A stretch of 64,000 nucleotides of DNA, from NCBI GenBank assembly GCA_020720815.1, contig DYNY01000003.1, positions 1,002-65,001 on the forward strand. The letters are read 5' to 3'. Shown here one piece after another: positions 1 through 46,841 of this stretch. The number at the start of each line of letters is the position of its first letter. The stretch's first letter is position 1. Source of the DNA: Candidatus Elulimicrobium sp. Its GTDB lineage: Bacteria; Patescibacteriota; Minisyncoccia; Phycocordibacterales; UBA918. The notes beneath the pieces are model-generated. The model did no database searches. It was not told the origin of the DNA and saw nothing but the letters and a program-made list of their open reading frames with translations. The translations under genes were made by a program, and so were the position numbers.

Positions 1-2
1 AA

Positions 3-221
3 TACTTTGAAGCTAACTCAGATAGGTTCGTCAGCGATTATGCCACTCTCTCGCCAGATGAAGATTTGGCCGAGACTTTTGTCACCTTTGTGCATGAAGA
101 AAGGGGAAGAGGTACAACGTTGCGCGAAGAAAAAATAAACGCGTTTTATAGCCTGCCCGAGTTTGTATCAATCCGAAATACTTTGCGAAATAATCTTAAA
201 AAGTTGGGTGTATTGGATTAA
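3..221 (+). CDS. 3' end of an unidentified CDS, 5'-truncated by the window edge
   Basis: Frame 3 is open from the window start to TAA at 219-221. Translation is ...YATLSPDEDLAETFVTFVHEERGRGTTLREEKINAFYSLPEF.... No recognisable family. Confidence 0.3.
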   Translation, partial: YFEANSDRFVSDYATLSPDEDLAETFVTFVHEERGRGTTLREEKINAFYSLPEFVSIRNTLRNNLKKLGVLD

Positions 222-233
222 GAAGGAGGGTTT

Positions 234-262
234 TTGCTACGTCTTGACAGCGGGTATATAAT
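234..262 (+). promoter_or_regulatory. Putative sigma70-type promoter for the Hsp20 gene (TTGCTA-17-TATAAT)
   Basis: ttgcta at 234-239, a 17-nt spacer, tataat at 257-262, about 50 nt upstream of the ATG at 311. Confidence 0.3.
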
Positions 263-310
263 ATAGTCGTAGCATATTGCCATAACTTATTAGTTAAGTA
301 TAAAAATACT

Positions 311-730
311 ATGTCACTAATAAGATGGGAACCATTTGATGAGTTTGATCGCTTCTTTAGGGAGGTACAACCGCTCGTACCAAATCGCCAGAATTCGATG
401 GGCTTTGATATGGCAGTGGATGTTTATGAGGATGGGAAAGATATTGTGGCGGAAATGAATGTACCAGGACTAAAAGGTGAAGATATCGATGTTGAGGTTG
501 AGGATAGTTATTTAAGGATTTCTGGGCGTCGCGAAGAAGTGCAAGAAAAGAAAGAAAAAAATCATTATGCTAAAGAGATTCGTCGCGGTTCTTTTGAAAG
601 GGTAGTGCAGCTACCCGATGCAGTAGAGCAAGAAGCAGTGAGTGCGCAGTACAAAGACGGTGTACTAAAAGTCGTCATGCCTAAACGAGAAAAGACTGCT
701 GACAAGAAAGTAAAGGTACAAGTGCGGTAG
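311..730 (+). CDS. Hsp20/alpha-crystallin family small heat-shock protein
   Basis: 139 aa with an alpha-crystallin domain signature (…DVYEDGKDIVAEMNVPGLKGEDIDVEVEDSYLRISGRR…GVLKVVMPK). Confidence 0.85.
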   Translation: MSLIRWEPFDEFDRFFREVQPLVPNRQNSMGFDMAVDVYEDGKDIVAEMNVPGLKGEDIDVEVEDSYLRISGRREEVQEKKEKNHYAKEIRRGSFERVVQLPDAVEQEAVSAQYKDGVLKVVMPKREKTADKKVKVQVR

Positions 731-789
731 AGGTAAAATTATATAACCTAGAAACAAAGTTGCGCCCTAAAGGCGCAACTTTGTTTCTA

Positions 790-1353
790 CTAGTCTAGAC
801 CAAGTATTCCTTTAAATTTACTCCAGGTACTAGCCGAAGCTTTAGTTTTGGCTTGTATTTCTCTATTAGAATAACCAGTATTGGGTCCAACCACCGCTTC
901 TCCTTGTGGCAGGTCTGTATACCCATTTATCATTTTAGCATCATAAATTGATCCAGTAATTTCTCCATGTGGTTGAGGTTTGCCGAGGATTCCTTCTGTT
1001 GGTCTTACACTAGCTAGATTTGAGTCTCGATTACCAGCGTATAACCTTTCAGTTGTTGCCTCTTCATCAAATCTAGTATTTTCCCAACCAGTTTTTGTGT
1101 GGTCTTTTAGTTCTAAACCAGCCGACAACTCATCCAGCATTTCCTCATTTAAAATTACTTCTTTTCTTTCAATGCCCTTGGCTATTACATCGGTTGTACT
1201 GAAAGGCTCGTTAGCAGCTTCGTTTCCACCTGATTTTATTAAGTAGTCTACAAATTTTTTATTTTCAAGTTTTATGTCAGGCAAAGAATCATTACCATGT
1301 TCGTCCCAGTTATAAACGGGCCCATCTTTTTTTGCCCTACCTTCAATGCTCAT
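790..1353 (-). CDS. Hypothetical soluble protein (187 aa)
   Basis: Long ORF with protein-like composition. No family recognised and no TM or signal peptide. Confidence 0.4.
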   Translation of the reverse strand: MSIEGRAKKDGPVYNWDEHGNDSLPDIKLENKKFVDYLIKSGGNEAANEPFSTTDVIAKGIERKEVILNEEMLDELSAGLELKDHTKTGWENTRFDEEATTERLYAGNRDSNLASVRPTEGILGKPQPHGEITGSIYDAKMINGYTDLPQGEAVVGPNTGYSNREIQAKTKASASTWSKFKGILGLD

Positions 1354-1456
1354 GATTTATTGGCTTATATTTTAATTTAATTACATTTTACACGATTTTG
1401 ACAAAAATTGAACAATGAATTACAGCTAACGCACCAAGGCGTGCTAAAATCTAGCA

Positions 1457-1618
1457 ATGGAAAGAAAACTCATTTGGCTTGGCCTGGCCGTCGGATCTGC
1501 TGTCGGCGGATATATACCGATGTTATGGGGGGACCCTGCCTTCTCAATGTCTTCTGTGTTGTTAAGTGCTGTTGGTGGAATATTAGGGATTTGGCTTGGT
1601 TACCGTCTGGGTAGATAA
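1457..1618 (+). CDS. GlsB/YeaQ/YmgE-family small membrane protein (53 aa)
   Basis: Below the ORF-track length cutoff. Translation MERKLIWLGLAVGSAVGGYIPMLWGDPAFSMSSVLLSAVGGILGIWLGYRLGR has the two Gly-rich TM helices typical of the transglycosylase-associated protein family. The overlapping listed ORF 1408..1614 looks spurious. Confidence 0.55.
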   Translation: MERKLIWLGLAVGSAVGGYIPMLWGDPAFSMSSVLLSAVGGILGIWLGYRLGR

Positions 1619-1712
1619 AGACGAAAACTTTTATTTTAAATAAATAAAGGCCCAGGTCTTAGCGTGCTAAACGCTAGTTTCCTGGACCCTTGTGACCAAC
1701 CTGGTCAATGAA

Positions 1713-3212
1713 TCACTTCTTCCGCATCAGCTCCGTGACCGGCTCGATCTTACCGGCGGTGAGGCTGAATACGGAATAGCGGTCCTCGTCACCGGCCTTG
1801 GGGCACATTGCGAGCGTACCGCTGTTGAGGCCGTGGTCGCGCAATGCACGGATGCCGTCCATGTTGGCCACCACGATGACTTCCTCCATCTCGCCCTTGA
1901 CGGGAACCGTCAGAAACGAAATGGATTGGGGAGCCATTTTTGCCGTGTTGGTGTGGGACAGAGAAGGTTCTCTGGTCACCGCGGTGACCGCTTGGCGAAC
2001 CTTCCTCGCGCCATCCTTCTTCACCATGAAGGATTCAATCAGTTCCCCGACCTCACCCGTCTTGGTGTTGTAGGAAGTGACGGAGATGCAGAAGGCGCCG
2101 TGTCCGAGCATCAGCCACTCATCGCCGACGACCGGATAGCCGTGACGGCGATCGCCCGAGAGGGTGTGTGCGAAGATGCGCTTGCGACCGGCGATTTCCG
2201 CCCGCTTGGCATCCCGCTCCGCTCGGCGCTTGGCACGCTCTTTTTCAGCGACAGCTTCTTCTTCCATCTTGGCCGCTTGACGTGCTGCGGTCAAGGTTTT
2301 GTTGATGGCTGTGCGAAGTGTTGCCTCGCGTTGCGACCAAATTGGCTCGAGGCCCTCGGCCTGCGCGATCAGTTCCTTCAGTGCGACGAGGTCCTTCAAC
2401 TTGCGACCGCCGATGGATTCACCACCGATGCGTTGACGATGGGAGAGATCCCGTACAGGCACCACTTCGCAGAGGCTCTGCTTGGTCGAGATCATGATGA
2501 CGAGTTCGTCACCGACCTCGCGCAGAAACGCCATCCCGGCAAAACCGTAGTTCTTGTACTCCTTTCCAAAGGACCACATTTCCTGGCCGTCAAAGACGAC
2601 TTGGGCAGGGAGGAACTCGGCATGAGGAGCGGCACGCGGAGATCTCAACTGCTCGATCCTGAAACCCTCGAAGAGGGTGGTTTGCAACTGAAAACCCTTG
2701 CTGTCGGTCTTCTCATCGATGATTCGTTTGTTCAAAAGTGGTGAGAAATGCCCTGCGTAAGAGATTTGTAATTCAGGTAGTGCCCAATCTGTACCTCTTA
2801 CTTTTCCTCGGCAGTTTTTAGCACCACAATGACAATCCCAACTTGATATGTAGTCTTCTCGTGCTTCCCAGAGGGCATAGTCAGCTAAAAGCTCTTCACC
2901 AATAGAAATGTTTCTCCGTGCAATAAGGGTGAAGGCGTCGTCCATCCACACATTTGGGTCGCATGAGTGATTGATAAAGTATGTATCATCTTCACCTCTA
3001 TCCTCTACACTGTATAAGTCATTGTCCCATTGCAGTATGAGTTTTTCTTCTTGCACTGCACGCTCAGCTTCTTCCTTATGTACATATTTACCACCCCACA
3101 CAAGCACTTTCTCACCTAAACAGATTGGACTTGTTGCAAACATTCCCTTACCACCAATCTCGGAGGCTTTGATTTCAATGTTTGGATGTATCCAAGACTG
3201 CGTAGGTATCAT
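1713..3212 (-). CDS. SET-domain (lysine-methyltransferase-like) protein fused to a C-terminal ~345-aa domain encoded by a GC-rich block
   Basis: The N-terminal 150 aa carry the SET hallmarks (…YFINHSCDPNV…, GEELLADY, post-SET CHCGAKNCRG). The remainder, 1713-2750, lies in >60% GC DNA with high GC3 in this frame and includes a charged coiled-coil (KMEEEAVAEKERAKRRAERDAKRAEIAGRKR). Confidence 0.6.
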   Translation of the reverse strand: MIPTQSWIHPNIEIKASEIGGKGMFATSPICLGEKVLVWGGKYVHKEEAERAVQEEKLILQWDNDLYSVEDRGEDDTYFINHSCDPNVWMDDAFTLIARRNISIGEELLADYALWEAREDYISSWDCHCGAKNCRGKVRGTDWALPELQISYAGHFSPLLNKRIIDEKTDSKGFQLQTTLFEGFRIEQLRSPRAAPHAEFLPAQVVFDGQEMWSFGKEYKNYGFAGMAFLREVGDELVIMISTKQSLCEVVPVRDLSHRQRIGGESIGGRKLKDLVALKELIAQAEGLEPIWSQREATLRTAINKTLTAARQAAKMEEEAVAEKERAKRRAERDAKRAEIAGRKRIFAHTLSGDRRHGYPVVGDEWLMLGHGAFCISVTSYNTKTGEVGELIESFMVKKDGARKVRQAVTAVTREPSLSHTNTAKMAPQSISFLTVPVKGEMEEVIVVANMDGIRALRDHGLNSGTLAMCPKAGDEDRYSVFSLTAGKIEPVTELMRKK

Positions 3213-3448
3213 AAAAACTACTTAGAATACACACTTTGGGGTACCTTCCAATAGGTTACTTTGCAGTCTCAGTCGGGAATGTATCAGAGCAGGTGGTCAA
3301 AGAATACCTGGAACATCATTTCAGCGACGAGGATGAAGCTGATGATGCGTTCAAGATACAACCCTAACGTTTGACTTCAGTCAGCGAAGCACTCTGTGCG
3401 CTTCAGCGCACAGAGGTTGAAATTTTTAATAGTATGTACTTAGATACA

Positions 3449-5062
3449 TTATGAGTTCATAAGTGGAAAGAGGTAAGCATACCCTTCTTTTTCCATATTA
3501 CTTTGTGAAATAAAACGGAGTGATGCAGAATTCATACAATATCGCTTACCACCCCTATCTGCTGGCCCATCATCGAACACATGCCCGAGATGTGAGTCAG
3601 CAAAGCGCGATCGGACTTCAGTTCGCTTTGTAAAGAGTGTACTGTCTTTGTGTAGCACAACTGCGTCATCCGTAATCGGTTTTACAAATGACGGCCACCC
3701 GGTGCCAGAGTCATATTTATCCTTTGAGAAATACAACGGTTCCCCCGATACAATGTCTACATAGATTCCCTCAACATCATTCTTATCATACTCGTTCTTA
3801 AATGGCGTTTCGGTTCCATCCTCTTGTGTCACCTCATACTGAATTGATGTGAGGCGAGCACGAAGAACTTCAGGGGAAGGCTTCATAAAACTTTGCCAAG
3901 AGTTTTCTTTGGAAGTTATAGTACTTGATCCTGGTTCAGTCCATATACTCGGAGTAACAAACGTATTTGCGGAATCGCCCCAATATTTTTTAATAAATGT
4001 ATCTCTTCCTGAGGCAGTGCGATATAAGTTGTACCGAACTGGATTCTTCTCAGAATAATCTTGATGATATTCTTCAGCTGCCCAAAATGGTACTCGCGGA
4101 GTGACCAGAAGCGGCAATGGATTAGGAAATGTACGAAGTGCATCAACCGTGTCAATGATCCGACGTGCTTCAATCTTTTCGATATCATTTTCGTAGAATA
4201 TTGCTGGTGCATATTCTTTTCCTCGATCACCGAAGGATCCTTCCGCGTCCGTTGGGTCACCGTGTTTAATGATATGTTCGACGAGGTTCCCAAATGTTAG
4301 GGTATTTGCATCATATGTTACCAACACTACTTCACGATGACCACCTTCCTCATAATTCTTATAGGTAGGATTCTCGGTAGACCCGCCCGCGTATCCCGAC
4401 ACTACATCAATAACCCCTGTAACTTCTTCAAGATCATGCTCCACGCACCAGAAACATCCGTTTGCAAGTAGAGCAGTCTTTTTCGACATCTCGTAATTTT
4501 GTTGTCCTGTGGTGGTGCTAGGAATTGGTATTTCGGCGGACTTGCTCATGTCATCACCGTCTTGCATAGAATCTTCAACACTCAATTCGTTTGAAGTTAA
4601 TCCACTAATACTAATGTCCGCGTAGTTAAACAAAACACCAAACTGTTTACACCACGTCATCACGTATTTATAATCAGAAATATCTACCTCTGCAGGAATA
4701 ATGTAGTTGATATTACCCTCTGTGCCACGTAGCTCCCCAAGACTCACAAACTCCTTACCTTCAAGATCTTTGCTTAAATATACAAATAAATCTGGGCCAT
4801 TGATTGTCTTGAAATTTTCATAACAAATAGTTTTTCCTTCCGGAGAATCAATGAGTCTTACGGTTCCTTCAGCTGGATGCCCAACTGTACCCATAACAGG
4901 ATAGCTCTCAACAATCATGACCTCGTCTTTACTACTAGAAACACTTAGCATTACTGGGGCTTCTTCGTTAAGTGTAACTGTTTTAAAGGTTGGAGAGATG
5001 GTGTAATAACCAAAACCGATGAGCACCGTGGCGACGACTGCAATAATTATTTTATTTAACAT
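3449..5062 (-). CDS. msrAB: Membrane-anchored/secreted DM13-MsrA-MsrB fusion (peptide methionine sulfoxide reductase A/B)
   Basis: N-terminal TM helix. DM13-like segment (…[37 protein letters not shown]…). MsrA motif GCFWCVEH…YAGG…NPTY. MsrB motifs (…GWPSF…HLGHVF…, CxxC pairs). Confidence 0.8.
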
Positions 5063-5086
5063 ATACTAATAAGTATATACAAAACA

Positions 5087-5119
5087 AGGAGAATGTAAAG
5101 TTAACTTTACATTCTCCTT
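5087..5119. promoter_or_regulatory. Perfect 33-bp palindrome containing TGTAAAG-N4-CTTTACA, a candidate operator and/or terminator
   Basis: aaggagaatgtaaagttaactttacattctcctt lies between the stop of the DUF2178 gene and the start of msrAB, 25 nt upstream of the msrAB start codon. Confidence 0.5.
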
Positions 5120-5748: not shown

Positions 5749-5955
5749 CGGGATCACTTGCTTATTGAACTACGTCGTTTACTTACGACAGGGTAGTTCA
5801 ATTGGTCGTTGCAAAAGTTTTAAAAGTAAAGTAGACTTTACATCGGGAAGTGTGAAATTGTAACAATAGTAAAGAAGTAAAAAATAATTAGTATAACCAA
5901 AGTTTCAAAATTATCTTTGACTTGATTGTGTTTATCTATATTAAATCCCACCCGT

Positions 5956-6360
5956 ATGATATCTGACGAACAATTGAAGAAAGTTAACCCCGAATTGTAT
6001 AAAATTGCTCGAGAGGGTGGTACCGAAGCCCCACACTCCAGCGATCTGTTGTATGTTGACGATAATGGAACTTTCCACTGCGCAGTTTGCAACGCGCTGC
6101 TATTTGACTCGGAAACTAAGTTTGATTCCGGATCAGGTTGGCCCTCTTTTACAGATCCAATAAATAAAGAGGCCGTCACCCTCATCCATGATCATAGTCA
6201 TGGGATGCGAAGAACAGAAGTCCGTTGCAGTAATTGCAAGGCGCACTTAGGGCATGTCTTCCCTGATGGTCCAGAACGAACCGGTGGTGGAGAAAGAGAC
6301 TTTGGGCGTCACAATCGATATTGTATCAATGGCATTTCGCTTGAAATGCATAATAAATAA
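5956..6360 (+). CDS. msrB: Peptide methionine sulfoxide reductase MsrB (SelR)
   Basis: CAVCNALLFDSETKFDSGSGWPSF…CSNCKAHLGHVF, the Zn-binding CxxC pairs and the catalytic region. The start is taken at MISDEQ, while the track ORF begins 10 codons upstream. Confidence 0.85.
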   Translation: MISDEQLKKVNPELYKIAREGGTEAPHSSDLLYVDDNGTFHCAVCNALLFDSETKFDSGSGWPSFTDPINKEAVTLIHDHSHGMRRTEVRCSNCKAHLGHVFPDGPERTGGGERDFGRHNRYCINGISLEMHNK

Positions 6361-8105: not shown

Positions 8106-8178
8106 GGCGGCTATCGGGAATCGAACCCGAATCGAAGGCTCCACAAACCTCAGTGTTAACCGTTACACCATAGCCGCC
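8106..8178 (-). tRNA. tRNA-His (anticodon GTG) with an encoded G-1
   Basis: Manual cloverleaf fold. Acceptor GCGGCTA/TAGCCGC, D-stem GTGT/ACAC with a GG loop, anticodon stem GAGGT/GCCTT with loop TTGTGGA giving GUG, T-arm TCGGG-TTCGATT-CCCGA, discriminator C. The extra 5' G pairs with C73, a tRNA-His hallmark. Confidence 0.75.
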
Positions 8179-45695: not shown

Positions 45696-46841
45696 TTATT
45701 CCGGTTGAGCTTCTTCAGTTGCTTCTGGACCACTACTACTTTCTACGCCACTATGTCGGGCACTATTTCCTGCTACCTCATCTTTCAGTGCCCTACGAAT
45801 ATGTCCCAAAAGTACTTTCTCTACTTTAGGATTCTCGCGTAGGAAAGTGCGGGCTGCATCATAACCTCGTCCAAGCTTCACTTCAGTACTCTCATCGCCA
45901 CCTGGTGGAAGGAAAGTGTATGAAGCGCCTGACTTACGAACCAGCTTATATTTCTCACCAAGGGCTAGAAGTTCACCTTGTGTACTGATACCCTCACCGT
46001 AGATAAGGTCAAATTCAGTGGTACGGAAAGGAGAGGCGACTTTGTTTTTCACTACCTTTACTCGGTGTCGTCCACCCACCACTTCTTCACCTTTCTTGAT
46101 TTGGGCGATGCGGCGGATATCGAGACGCACTGAAGTATAAAACTTAAGTGCCTTACCGCCTGGGGTAGTTTCTGGATTACCAAACATCACTCCGACCTGC
46201 ATACGGATCTGGTTAATAAAGATAACTACCGTTTTGCTCTTGGCGACGATACCAGTTAGCTTACGCAAAGCCTGACTCATGAGACGAGCTTGTTTGCCAA
46301 CGTGATGTGCTCCCATTTCACCCTCGATTTCATCACGTGGTGTAAGGGCAGCCACGGAGTCGATAACGATGATATCAATTTTTCCGGATCGAACTAGTGA
46401 CTCAACGATTTCCAAAGCCTGCTCACCATTATCAGGTTGAGAAATAAGTAACTGATCAAGTTTGACACCGATGTTGCGAGCGTATTCAGGGTCCATGGCG
46501 TGTTCTGCATCAATAAAAGCACAAATACCGCCAAGCTTTTGTGCTTCTGCTACTGCATGTAGTGCTAGCGTAGTTTTACCGGATGATTCTGGTCCAAATA
46601 TTTCCAATATACGACCACGTGGGTAGCCACCTATACCGAGAGCATCATCTAGTCCGATTGAGCCACTTGGAACGGCGTCCACATCAACTCGTTTGCTCTC
46701 ATTAAGTGTCATTATTGAATCGTCACCAAATTTGGTTTTGATGGCTCGCAGGGTTTCCGCGATACTAGAAATATCACCACCTTTTTTGTCATTGGCTTCG
46801 CCTAGGGTCTTAGCCACCTTAGCTACTTTTTTCTTTACCAT
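45696..46841 (-). CDS. recA: Recombinase RecA
   Basis: Walker [13 protein letters not shown], the N-terminal …[10 protein letters not shown], and a long acidic C-terminal tail. Confidence 0.95.

What the first reader, a model, noticed from the sequence alone, without database searches (positions are those of the whole stretch)
1713..3212. Single ORF spanning an abrupt GC-content boundary: native AT-rich SET domain fused to a >60% GC block encoding ~345 aa
On the minus strand the first ~150 codons (3212 down to ~2755) are AT-rich like the rest of the window. They encode a SET domain with a post-SET Cys cluster (…YFINHSCDPNV…GEELLADY…CHCGAKNCRG).

At ~2750 the DNA switches sharply to >60% GC. 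The reading frame continues uninterrupted for ~345 more codons and stops at 1713-1715, exactly where AT-rich DNA resumes.

In the GC block, third-codon positions of this frame are overwhelmingly G/C (read directly from the sequence). The overlapping + strand ORF 1692..2744 has T-rich third positions and a junk-like translation. So the GC block is real coding sequence from a high-GC donor, in the minus orientation.

The block is flanked by native composition on both sides, which argues against a simple contig chimera. It looks instead like a ~1 kb foreign fragment recombined in-frame onto a resident SET-domain gene. The acquired part includes a long charged coiled-coil (KMEEEAVAEKERAKRRAERDAKRAEIAGRKR) and a C-terminal alpha/beta region I cannot place in any family.
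Basis: seen in the sequence. Interest (0 to 1): 0.8.

Follow-up and report, generated by a model that had tools for sequence, protein, structure and literature searches.

The report
SET methyltransferase fused to orphan gene
A small SET-domain methyltransferase gene in a candidate-phyla-radiation (CPR) bacterium is joined in frame to a normally independent gene of unknown function; that gene is unusually GC-rich in every CPR genome examined, so its composition is a family trait and not evidence of import from a high-GC donor.

Summary
ORF 1713-3212(-) encodes 499 aa. GC3 jumps from 0.36 in the SET part to 0.72 in the rest; window genes average 0.375 +/- 0.063.

The ORF is a fusion of two genes that are otherwise separate. 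Codons 1-165 are a SET methyltransferase; the closest free-standing relative is 93% identical and ends only four residues later (AVKK*). Codons 166-499 are an uncharacterised family I call X: about 335 representative clusters, nearly all 320-360 aa, with organism labels only from CPR bacteria.

The crossover lies in a short shared ATC(ATC)G stretch. It removed X's first six codons, its promoter and a conserved 5' leader RNA. An independent Logan read assembly is identical across the whole ORF and both boundaries.

The "high-GC donor" reading is not supported. X is GC-richer than its flanks in all 16 loci examined (mean +0.124). It sits at syntenic positions in related genomes, and no host reaches X's GC. 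Ribosomal-protein and EF-Tu genes in the same loci have ordinary GC3.

Verdict: a recent singleton gene fusion of modest interest. The X unit, with its persistent GC excess and its leader RNA, is the more novel lead.

The parts
1713..3212 (-). Fused ORF: 499 codons plus stop (SET part plus X part)
   Evidence: ORF list. One search finds the exact protein in Logan contig SRR1560848_46928. One search finds the protein in NCBI and Logan on a 66,423-bp contig.
2718..3212 (-). SET-derived part, codons 1-165. It carries the GxG motif (GGKGMF), NHSC, ELLADY and the post-SET CHCGAKNC cluster. It lacks only the last 4 codons (AVKK) and stop of the closest free-standing relative.
   Evidence: Pfam SET; 433 homologues; the 120 best listed are 132-207 aa, none with a C-terminal extension. 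P0283, 169 aa, 93% identical over 165/165 residues, then AVKK*. DNA homology with L018 ends at 2719.
2717..2723 (-). Crossover point: ATCATC(G), which encodes the Ile-Ile present at both the SET 3' end and the X 5' end. This is 4-7 nt of microhomology, depending on the parental codons.
   Evidence: SET relatives read CGA ATT ATC GCA (L020) and CGA ATT ATT GCA (L018). X relatives read ACC ATC ATC GAA (L015, L017). The window reads CGA ATC ATC GAT GAG.
1716..2717 (-). X-derived part, codons 166-499. It corresponds to residues 7 to the end of a normally free-standing ~335-aa CPR protein. The model shows an N-terminal beta-rich head, a 48-residue A/E/R/K-rich helix and two C-terminal beta-rich modules. 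GC 0.59, GC3 0.72.
   Evidence: homologues. (model, pLDDT 94). (no structural neighbour). (composition). (dN/dS 0.15-0.25 against the closest relatives).
1638..1712 (-). X-family 3' UTR and intrinsic terminator: small hairpin TGACCAG/TTGGTCA, long stem GGGTCCAGG...CCTGGGCC, then a T-run. It is conserved at DNA level with free-standing X genes.
   Evidence: alignment A6 with L015, L017, L005, L001, L007, L024. (sequence).
3213..3448 (-). Intergenic region upstream of the SET start. It contains the upstream msrAB gene's terminator-like hairpin (3392-3415). By inference it also holds the only promoter and ribosome-binding site now serving the fusion.
   Evidence: sequence. (inverted repeat I21, 11 nt, 100% complementary). 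One search found no consensus promoter, so the promoter assignment is inference only.
1692..2744 (+). Antisense 350-aa ORF. It is a by-product of the sense frame avoiding TTA, CTA and TCA codons, not a gene.
   Evidence: 0 such codons in the window X. The full-length antisense ORF is not conserved in homologues (145, 162, 217, 280 and 339 aa).

Best explanation
The ORF is a real and evolutionarily recent in-frame fusion of two resident genes of a Parcubacteria/Paceibacterota-type CPR bacterium.

**Upstream partner.** It is an ordinary ~169-aa bacterial SET-domain (putative lysine) methyltransferase gene.

**Downstream partner.** It is a member of an uncharacterised family ("X"), seen so far only in CPR. 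X normally forms its own transcription unit: a near-consensus promoter, a ~58-nt structured leader, a ~335-codon GC-rich ORF, and a conserved 3' UTR with terminator.

**How the fusion arose (inferred).** An illegitimate, microhomology-mediated recombination occurred at a shared ATC(ATC)G. Most simply this was a deletion between a SET gene and an X unit lying downstream on the same strand. It removed SET's last four codons and stop, whatever lay between the genes, and X's promoter, leader and first six codons.

**Consequence.** A 499-aa protein is made in which an essentially complete SET domain runs without a linker into the first beta-strand of an essentially complete X protein. By inference it is now transcribed and translated from SET's signals and terminated by X's own terminator.

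**The GC step.** It is not a mark of a high-GC donor. Elevated GC, especially GC3, is a property of the X family in nearly every host.

**Shown.** The two-gene origin, the junction position, the integrity of both parts, the lost leader, the family-wide GC excess and the independent assembly support.

**Inferred.** The deletion mechanism, the prior adjacency of the two genes, the expression from SET's signals, and whether the chimera is functional.
For: **Two-gene origin.**
- X homologues are free-standing 334-343-aa proteins that start MxWTI(I/T)xE and align to fusion residue ~160.
- An exhaustive profile search gives 335 representative clusters (166 at E<=1e-30). All of the 150 best listed are shorter than the 499-aa fusion (207-437 aa, most 320-360).
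- SET search: 433 homologues at E<=1e-10. The 120 best listed are 132-207 aa and none carries a C-terminal extension.
- The closest SET protein (P0283) is 93% identical over all 165 residues and then ends AVKK*.

**Junction.**
- The junction falls in shared ATC ATC G.
- The X 3' UTR and terminator are retained.
- The X leader model hits once, directly upstream of X, in 12 of the 15 X loci searched. It hits nowhere else in 264 kb and not in the window.
- No repeat pair brackets the block.

**Assembly support.**
- The exact protein sits on an independent Logan contig that is 99.96% identical over 5115 nt, with both mismatches outside the ORF.

**X is native to CPR.**
- All five genome hits are CPR lineages, and no viral contig was found.
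- X is syntenic in L004/L008, L001/L007 and L015/L017.
- Peptidase_Mx1 lies downstream of X in the window/L021, L001 and L028.

**GC excess is a family trait.**
- X exceeds its flanks in 16 of 16 loci, mean +0.124, sd 0.041.
- Ribosomal-protein and EF-Tu genes in the same loci have GC3 0.25-0.49, against 0.63-0.72 for X.

**The fused copy is intact.**
- All family-invariant residues are retained.
- dN/dS is 0.15-0.25 against the nearest relatives.
Against: - No relative with SET and X adjacent on the same strand was found. In the SET-bearing loci L018 and L020 and in all the X loci, the two genes are not neighbours. The "local deletion" step therefore has no observed precursor.
- The microhomology is inferred from relatives, not from the true parents. 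It could be as short as 4 nt.
- In the syntenic pair L015/L017, X's silent sites are far less diverged than its neighbours' (pS 0.34 against 0.73-0.90). X alleles therefore do move, or are constrained, within this clade, and lateral arrival of the window's X allele from another CPR bacterium cannot be excluded.
- The Logan contig may derive from the same sequencing run as the window's source assembly. It controls for assembler error but not for library artefacts.
- Nothing shows that the chimeric protein is expressed or functional.
Confidence: 0.75

Rival explanations
1. One reading: a ~1-kb fragment from a high-GC donor lineage was recently transferred and recombined in frame onto a resident SET gene. 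The GC step marks unameliorated foreign DNA.
For: - There is a sharp GC and GC3 step at the junction.
- The codon usage of the block is unlike the neighbouring genes: AAG 0.88 against 0.33, ATC 0.81 against 0.25.
- X silent sites are less diverged than the flanks in L015/L017, which is compatible with recent movement.
Against: - All organism-labelled homologues are CPR bacteria with flank GC of 0.36-0.52, always below that of their X gene.
- The GC excess recurs in 16 of 16 loci across Parcubacteria, Saccharibacteria, Wolfebacteria and Gracilibacteria.
- It persists between copies whose silent sites are saturated (L001/L007, L004/L008). It is therefore maintained, not unameliorated.
- X is syntenic in related genomes, and the X-to-Mx1 linkage is kept in the window.
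- No mobility genes and no repeats bracketing the block were found.
Confidence: 0.07
2. Same fusion, different route. An X unit, or a fragment of one, arrived laterally from another CPR bacterium. It integrated by illegitimate recombination at the 3' end of SET, rather than being fused by a deletion between pre-existing neighbours.
For: - In L015/L017, X has pS 0.34 and the same codon at 77% of conserved residues. The syntenic neighbours show 0.73-0.90 and 37-43%.
- The window's X is only dS 0.46-0.77 from copies in hosts whose flank GC differs by up to 11 points.
- The promoter/leader and the 3' UTR are conserved at DNA level in unrelated neighbourhoods and could serve as recombination anchors.
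- No SET-X adjacency is seen anywhere.
Against: - Peptidase_Mx1 lies downstream of X, convergently oriented, in the window, L001 and L028 (X 72% and 47% identical). This suggests X sits at an old position.
- Low dS could instead reflect selection on silent sites.
- A one-sided microhomology join needs a second, unidentified join at the 3' side. There, homology ends at the natural terminator, as it does in every locus.
Confidence: 0.2
3. Artefact: an assembly chimera or an amplification (MDA-type) chimera joined two unrelated molecules at a short microhomology.
For: - The junction has only 4-7 nt of shared sequence, which is typical of template-switch chimeras.
- The exact junction 30-mer was not found in the JGI metagenome contigs.
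- The fusion is a singleton in its 90% cluster.
Against: - An independently built Logan contig is identical through both boundaries of the block, over a 5115-nt match to the window.
- The 3' side continues from X's own terminator into a neighbourhood that shares Mx1 synteny with other X loci.
- The join is in frame and leaves both domains essentially complete.
- 4-7 nt is far too short for k-mer assemblers to mis-join.
Confidence: 0.05

Closest known systems
Bacterial/archaeal stand-alone SET-domain proteins (Pfam PF00856; named 'SET domain-containing protein-lysine N-methyltransferase' in NCBI records)
   Same: - Residues 1-165 pass the Pfam gathering score.
- They carry the GxG, NHSC and ELxxDY motifs and the post-SET CxCx4C cluster, read directly from the sequence.
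- They are 54-93% identical to the full-length (163-207 aa) free-standing proteins from many bacterial and archaeal MAGs listed.
   Different: - None of the 120 best-listed homologues carries a C-terminal extension.
- Here the last 4 residues and the stop are replaced by a 334-aa unrelated protein.
- Substrate and activity are unknown for this subfamily. No experiment is cited and none was found.
Gene fusions created by microhomology-mediated (illegitimate) deletion between tandem genes, as described in textbooks of bacterial genome evolution
   Same: - The join is clean and in frame, at a short shared sequence.
- One gene's stop and the other's start and regulatory region are lost.
- No repeat pair brackets the block and no mobility genes are nearby.
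   Different: The precursor arrangement (SET and X adjacent) has not been observed in any relative, so the deletion is inferred rather than shown.
Compositionally atypical 'islands' and phage 'morons' (self-contained promoter-gene-terminator units of deviating GC)
   Same: The free-standing X unit has its own strong promoter, leader and terminator. Its composition differs from the host's, and it occurs in several different neighbourhoods.
   Different: - It is a single gene with no prophage or mobile-element context, and no viral-contig relatives were found.
- The GC excess persists across phylum-level CPR lineages and at syntenic positions, so it is not a transient mark of transfer.
Head-plus-coiled-coil proteins of the XRCC4/XLF/SAS-6/CCDC61 type, and SH2-like alpha-beta3-alpha modules
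   Same: - The overall architecture is a beta-rich head followed by a long helix.
   Different: - There is no sequence similarity.
- This is resemblance only, not membership.
Structured 5' leaders of bacterial mRNAs (5'-terminal stabiliser hairpins; loop-loop pseudoknots next to the ribosome-binding site)
   Same: The X leader has a hairpin near the predicted 5' end and a second hairpin abutting the AGGAG ribosome-binding site. The loops of the two hairpins are complementary, and the pairing is supported by covariation.
   Different: - There is no Rfam family, even at permissive thresholds.
- No ligand or function is known.
- The leader is absent from the window's fused copy.

Membership tests
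SET-domain methyltransferase (PF00856) | Profile match above the curated gathering score | tested here: met
   47.3 bits against a cutoff of 22.4, residues 21-112, profile positions 1-104 of 105.
SET-domain methyltransferase (PF00856) | Catalytic and cofactor motifs: N-terminal GxG, NHxC, ELxxDY (Tyr), and the post-SET CxCx4C zinc cluster | tested here: met
   Read from the translation: GGKGMF, INHSCDPN, GEELLADY, CHCGAKNC. All are invariant or nearly invariant in alignment A3.
SET-domain methyltransferase (PF00856) | Complete domain, as in free-standing orthologues (~169 aa) | tested here: met
   165 of 169 residues of the closest orthologue are present. Only AVKK is missing. That tail varies in sequence and length among homologues.
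SET-domain methyltransferase (PF00856) | S-adenosylmethionine-dependent lysine methyltransferase activity | not testable with these tools
   Needs a biochemical assay.
Family X (uncharacterised CPR protein, ~335 aa) | End-to-end alignment with family members and retention of the invariant residues | tested here: met
   96-99% query coverage. The 31 columns invariant across the 15-sequence alignment A2, e.g. W54, K120, W133, G199, P201, D205-E206-W207, F236, G302, are by definition conserved in the window copy. Only residues 1-6 are missing.
Family X (uncharacterised CPR protein, ~335 aa) | Own promoter and loop-loop leader RNA directly upstream | tested here: not met
   the leader model hits 12 X loci (52-85 bits) and has no hit in the window; no match to the leader's core sequence in the window beyond chance (one 3-mismatch hit at 46339-46352; 2.65 expected). 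The fusion removed the leader.
Family X (uncharacterised CPR protein, ~335 aa) | Conserved 3' UTR and terminator | tested here: met
   (A6): window 1638-1712 aligns with L015, L017, L005, L001, L007 and L024.
Family X (uncharacterised CPR protein, ~335 aa) | GC content above the host genome | tested here: met
   window X 0.588 against flanks 0.404. All 16 loci are positive (+0.04 to +0.18).
Recently acquired genomic island from a high-GC donor | Closest relatives in a donor lineage whose genome composition matches the island | tested here: not met
   all labelled relatives are CPR. The highest host flank GC is 0.52, below X's 0.58-0.66.
Recently acquired genomic island from a high-GC donor | Patchy presence without synteny among relatives | tested here: not met
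   X is syntenic in three genome pairs, and the X-to-Mx1 linkage is shared by the window, L001 and L028.
Recently acquired genomic island from a high-GC donor | Mobility signatures: integrase or transposase genes, flanking direct or inverted repeats, an adjacent tRNA | tested here: not met
   no repeat pair brackets 1640-2717; the adjacent ORFs (Hsp20, a 187-aa ORF, MsrAB; Pfam labels) show no mobility gene, although the window's own ORFs were not scanned individually. The nearest tRNA is at 8106-8177.

The most novel reading that the evidence does not exclude
The interesting object may be the X transcription unit rather than the fusion.

**What X is.** It is a protein family seen so far only in CPR, with a confidently predicted but unmatched fold. 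It is expressed from a near-consensus promoter through a previously undescribed loop-loop (kissing) leader RNA.

**The composition puzzle.**
- The coding sequence is held about 12 GC points above whatever genome it sits in: 0.58-0.61 in hosts of 0.40-0.51.
- Its protein evolves 2-4 times faster than its neighbours in two of three syntenic genome pairs, while its silent sites diverge more slowly.

**What that implies.** One possibility is selection acting on the mRNA itself, for stability or structure. The other is that the unit exchanges laterally among CPR bacteria, with GC-biased gene conversion. Either would be an unusual, gene-specific compositional regime in reduced genomes.

**Where the fusion fits.** The window's SET-X fusion would then be a natural experiment in which X is expressed without its leader.
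Probability: 0.35. Interest if true: 0.65.

Novelty: new variant of a known kind. Interest (0 to 1): 0.45.

Why it matters
**The fusion itself.** It is a clean, datable example of how a new multidomain protein arises in a streamlined CPR genome: one microhomology join, with both domains left intact. It is a single occurrence, so it says little about any functional link between SET methyltransferases and X.

**Method.** A sharp GC/GC3 step inside one ORF would normally be scored as recent horizontal transfer. Here the anomaly is a heritable property of one gene family across CPR lineages, so composition-based HGT calls would be wrong for it.

**Leads.** Family X (hundreds of clusters, no annotation, no structural neighbour) and its covarying leader RNA are concrete, testable leads in the uncharacterised gene content of CPR bacteria.

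Tried and rejected
1. **Known-family searches for the C-terminal part.** Pfam, NCBIfam, PHROGs and PDB sequence searches gave nothing significant. The best were PHROG 'DNA ligase' at E 0.026, TraW at E 0.086 and phiKZ RNAP at E 0.32, which I treat as noise. The profile search against PDB gave 0 hits.
3. **Antisense ORF as the real gene.** Rejected. It is not conserved and is explained by codon avoidance.
4. **Was the 342-aa gene 2.2 kb downstream of SET in L018 an X copy (a deletion precursor)?** Rejected. It is an unrelated secreted-type protein with GC3 0.30.
5. **GC excess as highly-expressed-gene codon bias.** Rejected. EF-Tu and ribosomal-protein genes in the same loci have GC3 0.25-0.49.
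6. **GC excess as an effect of amino-acid composition.** Insufficient. GC1 and GC2 are only slightly raised, and the excess lies in GC3.
7. **Phage origin.** No relatives in IMG/VR, although the pattern-based scan has limited sensitivity.
8. **Independent occurrence of the junction.** The exact junction 30-mer is absent from the JGI metagenome contigs.
9. **A second copy of SET or X, or of the leader, in the window.** None found.
10. **Flanking repeats.** None bracket the block.
11. **Literature.** Nothing on this family, on SET proteins in CPR, or on gene-specific GC excess in Patescibacteria.
Full report
**1. Observation**

The minus-strand ORF 1713..3212 (499 aa) exists. Residues 21-112 match Pfam SET (E 3e-12, 47.3 bits against a cutoff of 22.4). 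The GxG, NHSC, ELLADY and post-SET CHCGAKNC motifs can be read directly from the translation.

Composition changes sharply inside the ORF:
- The 1-kb GC maximum of the whole 64-kb window (0.581) lies at 1751. The mean is 0.418 and the sd 0.029.
- GC3 is 0.364 for codons 1-165 and 0.722 for codons 166-499. The 52 window ORFs average 0.375 +/- 0.063.

The + strand ORF 1692..2744 is real but trivial. It lies in the antisense frame where sense codons TTA, CTA and TCA would read as stops. The window's copy uses none of these codons, and homologues that use 2-3 of them lack the long antisense ORF.

**2. What the two halves are**

*The C-terminal half.* Searching the C-terminal 345 aa alone returned 15 proteins. 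Fourteen are free-standing proteins of 328-343 aa with 31-80% identity.
- They begin MxWTI(I/T)xE(T)TD and align to residue ~160 of the fusion.
- An exhaustive profile search of 1.84 billion representatives found 335 clusters (166 at E<=1e-30).
- Nearly all are 320-360 aa, and none of the best 150 is longer than 437 aa.
- I call this family X.
- It has no Pfam, NCBIfam, PHROG or PDB sequence match.

*The N-terminal half.* Searching the N-terminal 166 aa gave 433 SET proteins.
- The 120 listed are 132-207 aa.
- The closest free-standing one, P0283 (169 aa), is 93% identical over all 165 residues. It then ends AVKK*.
- So neither half is normally fused. The fusion is the only long member of its 90% cluster.

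**3. The junction**

| Source | Protein | DNA |
|---|---|---|
| SET relatives | ...GHFSPLLNKRII-AVKK* | CGA ATT ATC GCA (L020); CGA ATT ATT GCA (L018) |
| X relatives | MTWTII-EETTDNKGF... | ACC ATC ATC GAA GAA |
| Window | ...GHFSPLLNKRII-DEKTDSKGF... | CGA ATC ATC GAT GAG |

- The crossover lies in 4-7 nt of shared sequence at 2717-2723.
- DNA homology to a related SET gene stops at 2719.
- Downstream of the stop, the window keeps the family's conserved 3' UTR and terminator to about 1638.
- Upstream, the fusion has removed X's first six codons and everything 5' of them.
- No repeat pair brackets the block.

**4. Is it real?**

The exact 499-aa protein is encoded on a Logan contig assembled independently from SRR1560848.
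- That contig carries the same neighbours: MsrAB, a 53-aa gene, a 187-aa gene, Hsp20 and Peptidase_Mx1.
- It is 99.96% identical to window 1-5115.
- The two mismatches are at 271 and 274, outside the ORF.
- This excludes assembler error.
- It does not exclude a library-level artefact if the reads are the same, but a dominant chimera is unlikely.
- The junction 30-mer is absent from the JGI metagenome contigs.

**5. Is X foreign?**

The five hits among 185,579 species-representative genomes are all CPR: Parcubacteria, Paceibacterota, Saccharibacteria, Wolfebacteria and Gracilibacteria. No viral contig was found.

X sits at syntenic positions in three genome pairs:
- RecG-X-malic enzyme in L004/L008.
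- NUDIX...X...ABC-L19-PseudoU in L001/L007.
- NTP-transferase-tRNA-X-GatA-GatC in L015/L017.

In the window, Peptidase_Mx1 lies downstream of X in the same relative orientation as in L001 and L028.

X is GC-richer than its flanks in all 16 loci:
- The mean excess is +0.124 (sd 0.041).
- The regression slope on flank GC is 0.83.
- In the window's own clade X stays at 0.58-0.61 while host flanks range from 0.40 to 0.51.
- No host flank exceeds 0.52.
- One member (L024) has GC3 of only 0.42.

Ribosomal-protein and EF-Tu genes in the same loci have GC3 0.25-0.49, against 0.63-0.72 for X. This is therefore not ordinary expression-linked codon bias. The high-GC donor interpretation is not supported; the GC step simply marks the boundary between an ordinary gene and a member of a compositionally odd family.

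**6. A complication**

The silent-site comparison across the three syntenic pairs gives different pictures:

| Pair | X pS | Flank pS | Same codon at conserved residues (X / flanks) |
|---|---|---|---|
| L015/L017 | 0.34 | 0.73-0.90 | 77% / 37-43% |
| L001/L007 | 0.60 | 0.66-0.86 | 52% / 39-53% |
| L004/L008 | 0.72 | 0.84-0.87 | 43% / 34-37% |

In the last two pairs the X protein evolves 2-4 times faster than its flanks: dN 0.23 against 0.11-0.13, and 0.60 against 0.13-0.18.

So X alleles are either exchanged laterally among related CPR bacteria or constrained at silent sites. I cannot separate the two. This keeps open a variant in which the window's X allele came from another CPR bacterium. 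The donor would still not be a high-GC lineage.

Against its closest relatives the window's X part has dN/dS 0.15-0.25 and keeps all invariant residues.

**7. What X looks like**

With a 130-sequence alignment, AlphaFold2 gives mean pLDDT 94. The model has these parts:
- A beta-rich head (residues 1-~110).
- A short helix.
- One 48-residue helix rich in A, E, R and K.
- Two beta-rich C-terminal modules.

Function remains unknown. My working guess, from architecture alone, is a non-enzymatic protein in which the long helix acts as a spacer or oligomerisation element between two binding modules.

**8. The lost leader**

Free-standing X genes share three upstream features:
- A near-consensus promoter (TTGCTT/TTGACT, 17 nt, TGnTATAAT).
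- A ~58-nt leader with hairpin P1 (GGUG-CCCACA-CACC) and hairpin P2 (CUUAAUUC-UGUGGG-GAAUUAAG), which abuts the AGGAG ribosome-binding site.
- Complementary loops on the two hairpins.

Covariation supports all three pairings:
- On the MAFFT alignment, 95.6% of cells are paired. Eight pairs have double changes, 0 of 500 shuffles reach the covariation score, and slid controls give 35-50% pairing.
- On a hand-registered 12-sequence alignment, 99% of cells are paired and 11 of 18 pairs are compensatory. This alignment was made with the structure in mind, so it leans towards it.

A covariance model hits once, immediately upstream of X, in 12 of the 15 X loci searched. Two of these were not used to build the model. 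It hits nowhere else in 264 kb and not in the window. Rfam has no match.

The fused copy has therefore exchanged X's dedicated expression signals for those of SET. That last point is an inference; no consensus promoter was found upstream of SET.

**9. Verdict**

It is wrong on origin, because the block does not come from a high-GC donor.

The most likely mechanism is a recent microhomology-mediated deletion or illegitimate recombination that joined a resident SET gene to a resident, or CPR-derived, X unit.

The fusion itself is a singleton and of modest interest. The X unit is the more novel by-product: a family-wide GC excess, an unmatched fold and a new covarying leader RNA.

Noticed in passing
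L015:1409-1466, L017:2739-2796, L005:9936-9993, L001:9936-9994, L007:5130-5188, L004:9935-9994, L008:9936-9992, L012:2037-2098, L024:137-194, L027:3875-3936, L028:2495-2552, L029:3868-3923: A ~58-nt 5' leader lies upstream of free-standing X genes. It has two hairpins whose loops are complementary (CCCACA/UGUGGG), and compensatory changes occur in all three pairings. A near-consensus extended -10 promoter precedes it, and it ends at the AGGAG ribosome-binding site. There is no Rfam match. It is absent from the window and from the most distant X loci (L013, L014, L026).
   Followed up: yes
16 X loci; window 1716-2717: The gene-specific GC excess of family X persists across CPR lineages (mean +0.124 over flanks; GC3 0.54-0.86). 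L024 (GC3 0.42) and L026 (GC3 0.49) sit lower. EF-Tu and ribosomal-protein genes in the same loci do not share it. The cause is unexplained.
   Followed up: partly
L015:1474-2499 vs L017:2803-3819 and their flanks: X silent sites are much less diverged (pS 0.34) than those of the syntenic neighbours (pS 0.73-0.90), whose GC3 also differs by about 20 points between the two genomes. This points to recent allele exchange or to silent-site constraint.
   Followed up: partly
L029:3380-6402: X and a Pirin gene sit inside the S10 ribosomal-protein operon, between S10 and L3; X is on the opposite strand to the operon, Pirin on the same strand. This is an unusual interruption of a normally contiguous operon.
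   Followed up: no
P0014 (240 aa, ENA, 1.7-kb contig): A second possible chimera involving X. The last ~60 residues are 78% identical to the X C-terminus, while the N-terminal part carries Pfam PF07632. It could be another fusion or truncation, or an assembly artefact.
   Followed up: no
window 3449-5062 (-) and 5926-6360 (+): A 537-aa protein combines DM13, MsrA (PMSR) and MsrB (SelR) domains (Pfam labels from L021). A separate stand-alone MsrB gene lies nearby, so methionine-sulfoxide reductase functions are duplicated next to the fusion.
   Followed up: no
window 1457-1618 (+); 1413-1454 vs 1662-1729: A 53-aa Gly-rich, hydrophobic small ORF (membrane location is only a guess from its sequence) is convergent with the fusion and shares its terminator region. 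Short imperfect direct repeats (D3, D6; 75-88%) link its upstream region to the X 3' UTR. These may be chance matches.
   Followed up: no
L004:7512-9842 vs L008:6981-9821: RecG is one 946-aa gene with a PDDEXK_3 insert in L008. In L004 it is split into three ORFs: wedge, a 180-aa piece and the helicase.
   Followed up: no
L005:16186-16291: A LOOT RNA (RF03000) hit above the gathering score (55 bits) lies in a Parcubacteria-type contig about 5 kb from X.
   Followed up: no
L017:381-1004: A 207-aa ORF with faint LAGLIDADG hits lies next to tRNA genes, about 1.8 kb upstream of X. It may be a homing-endonuclease remnant.
   Followed up: no
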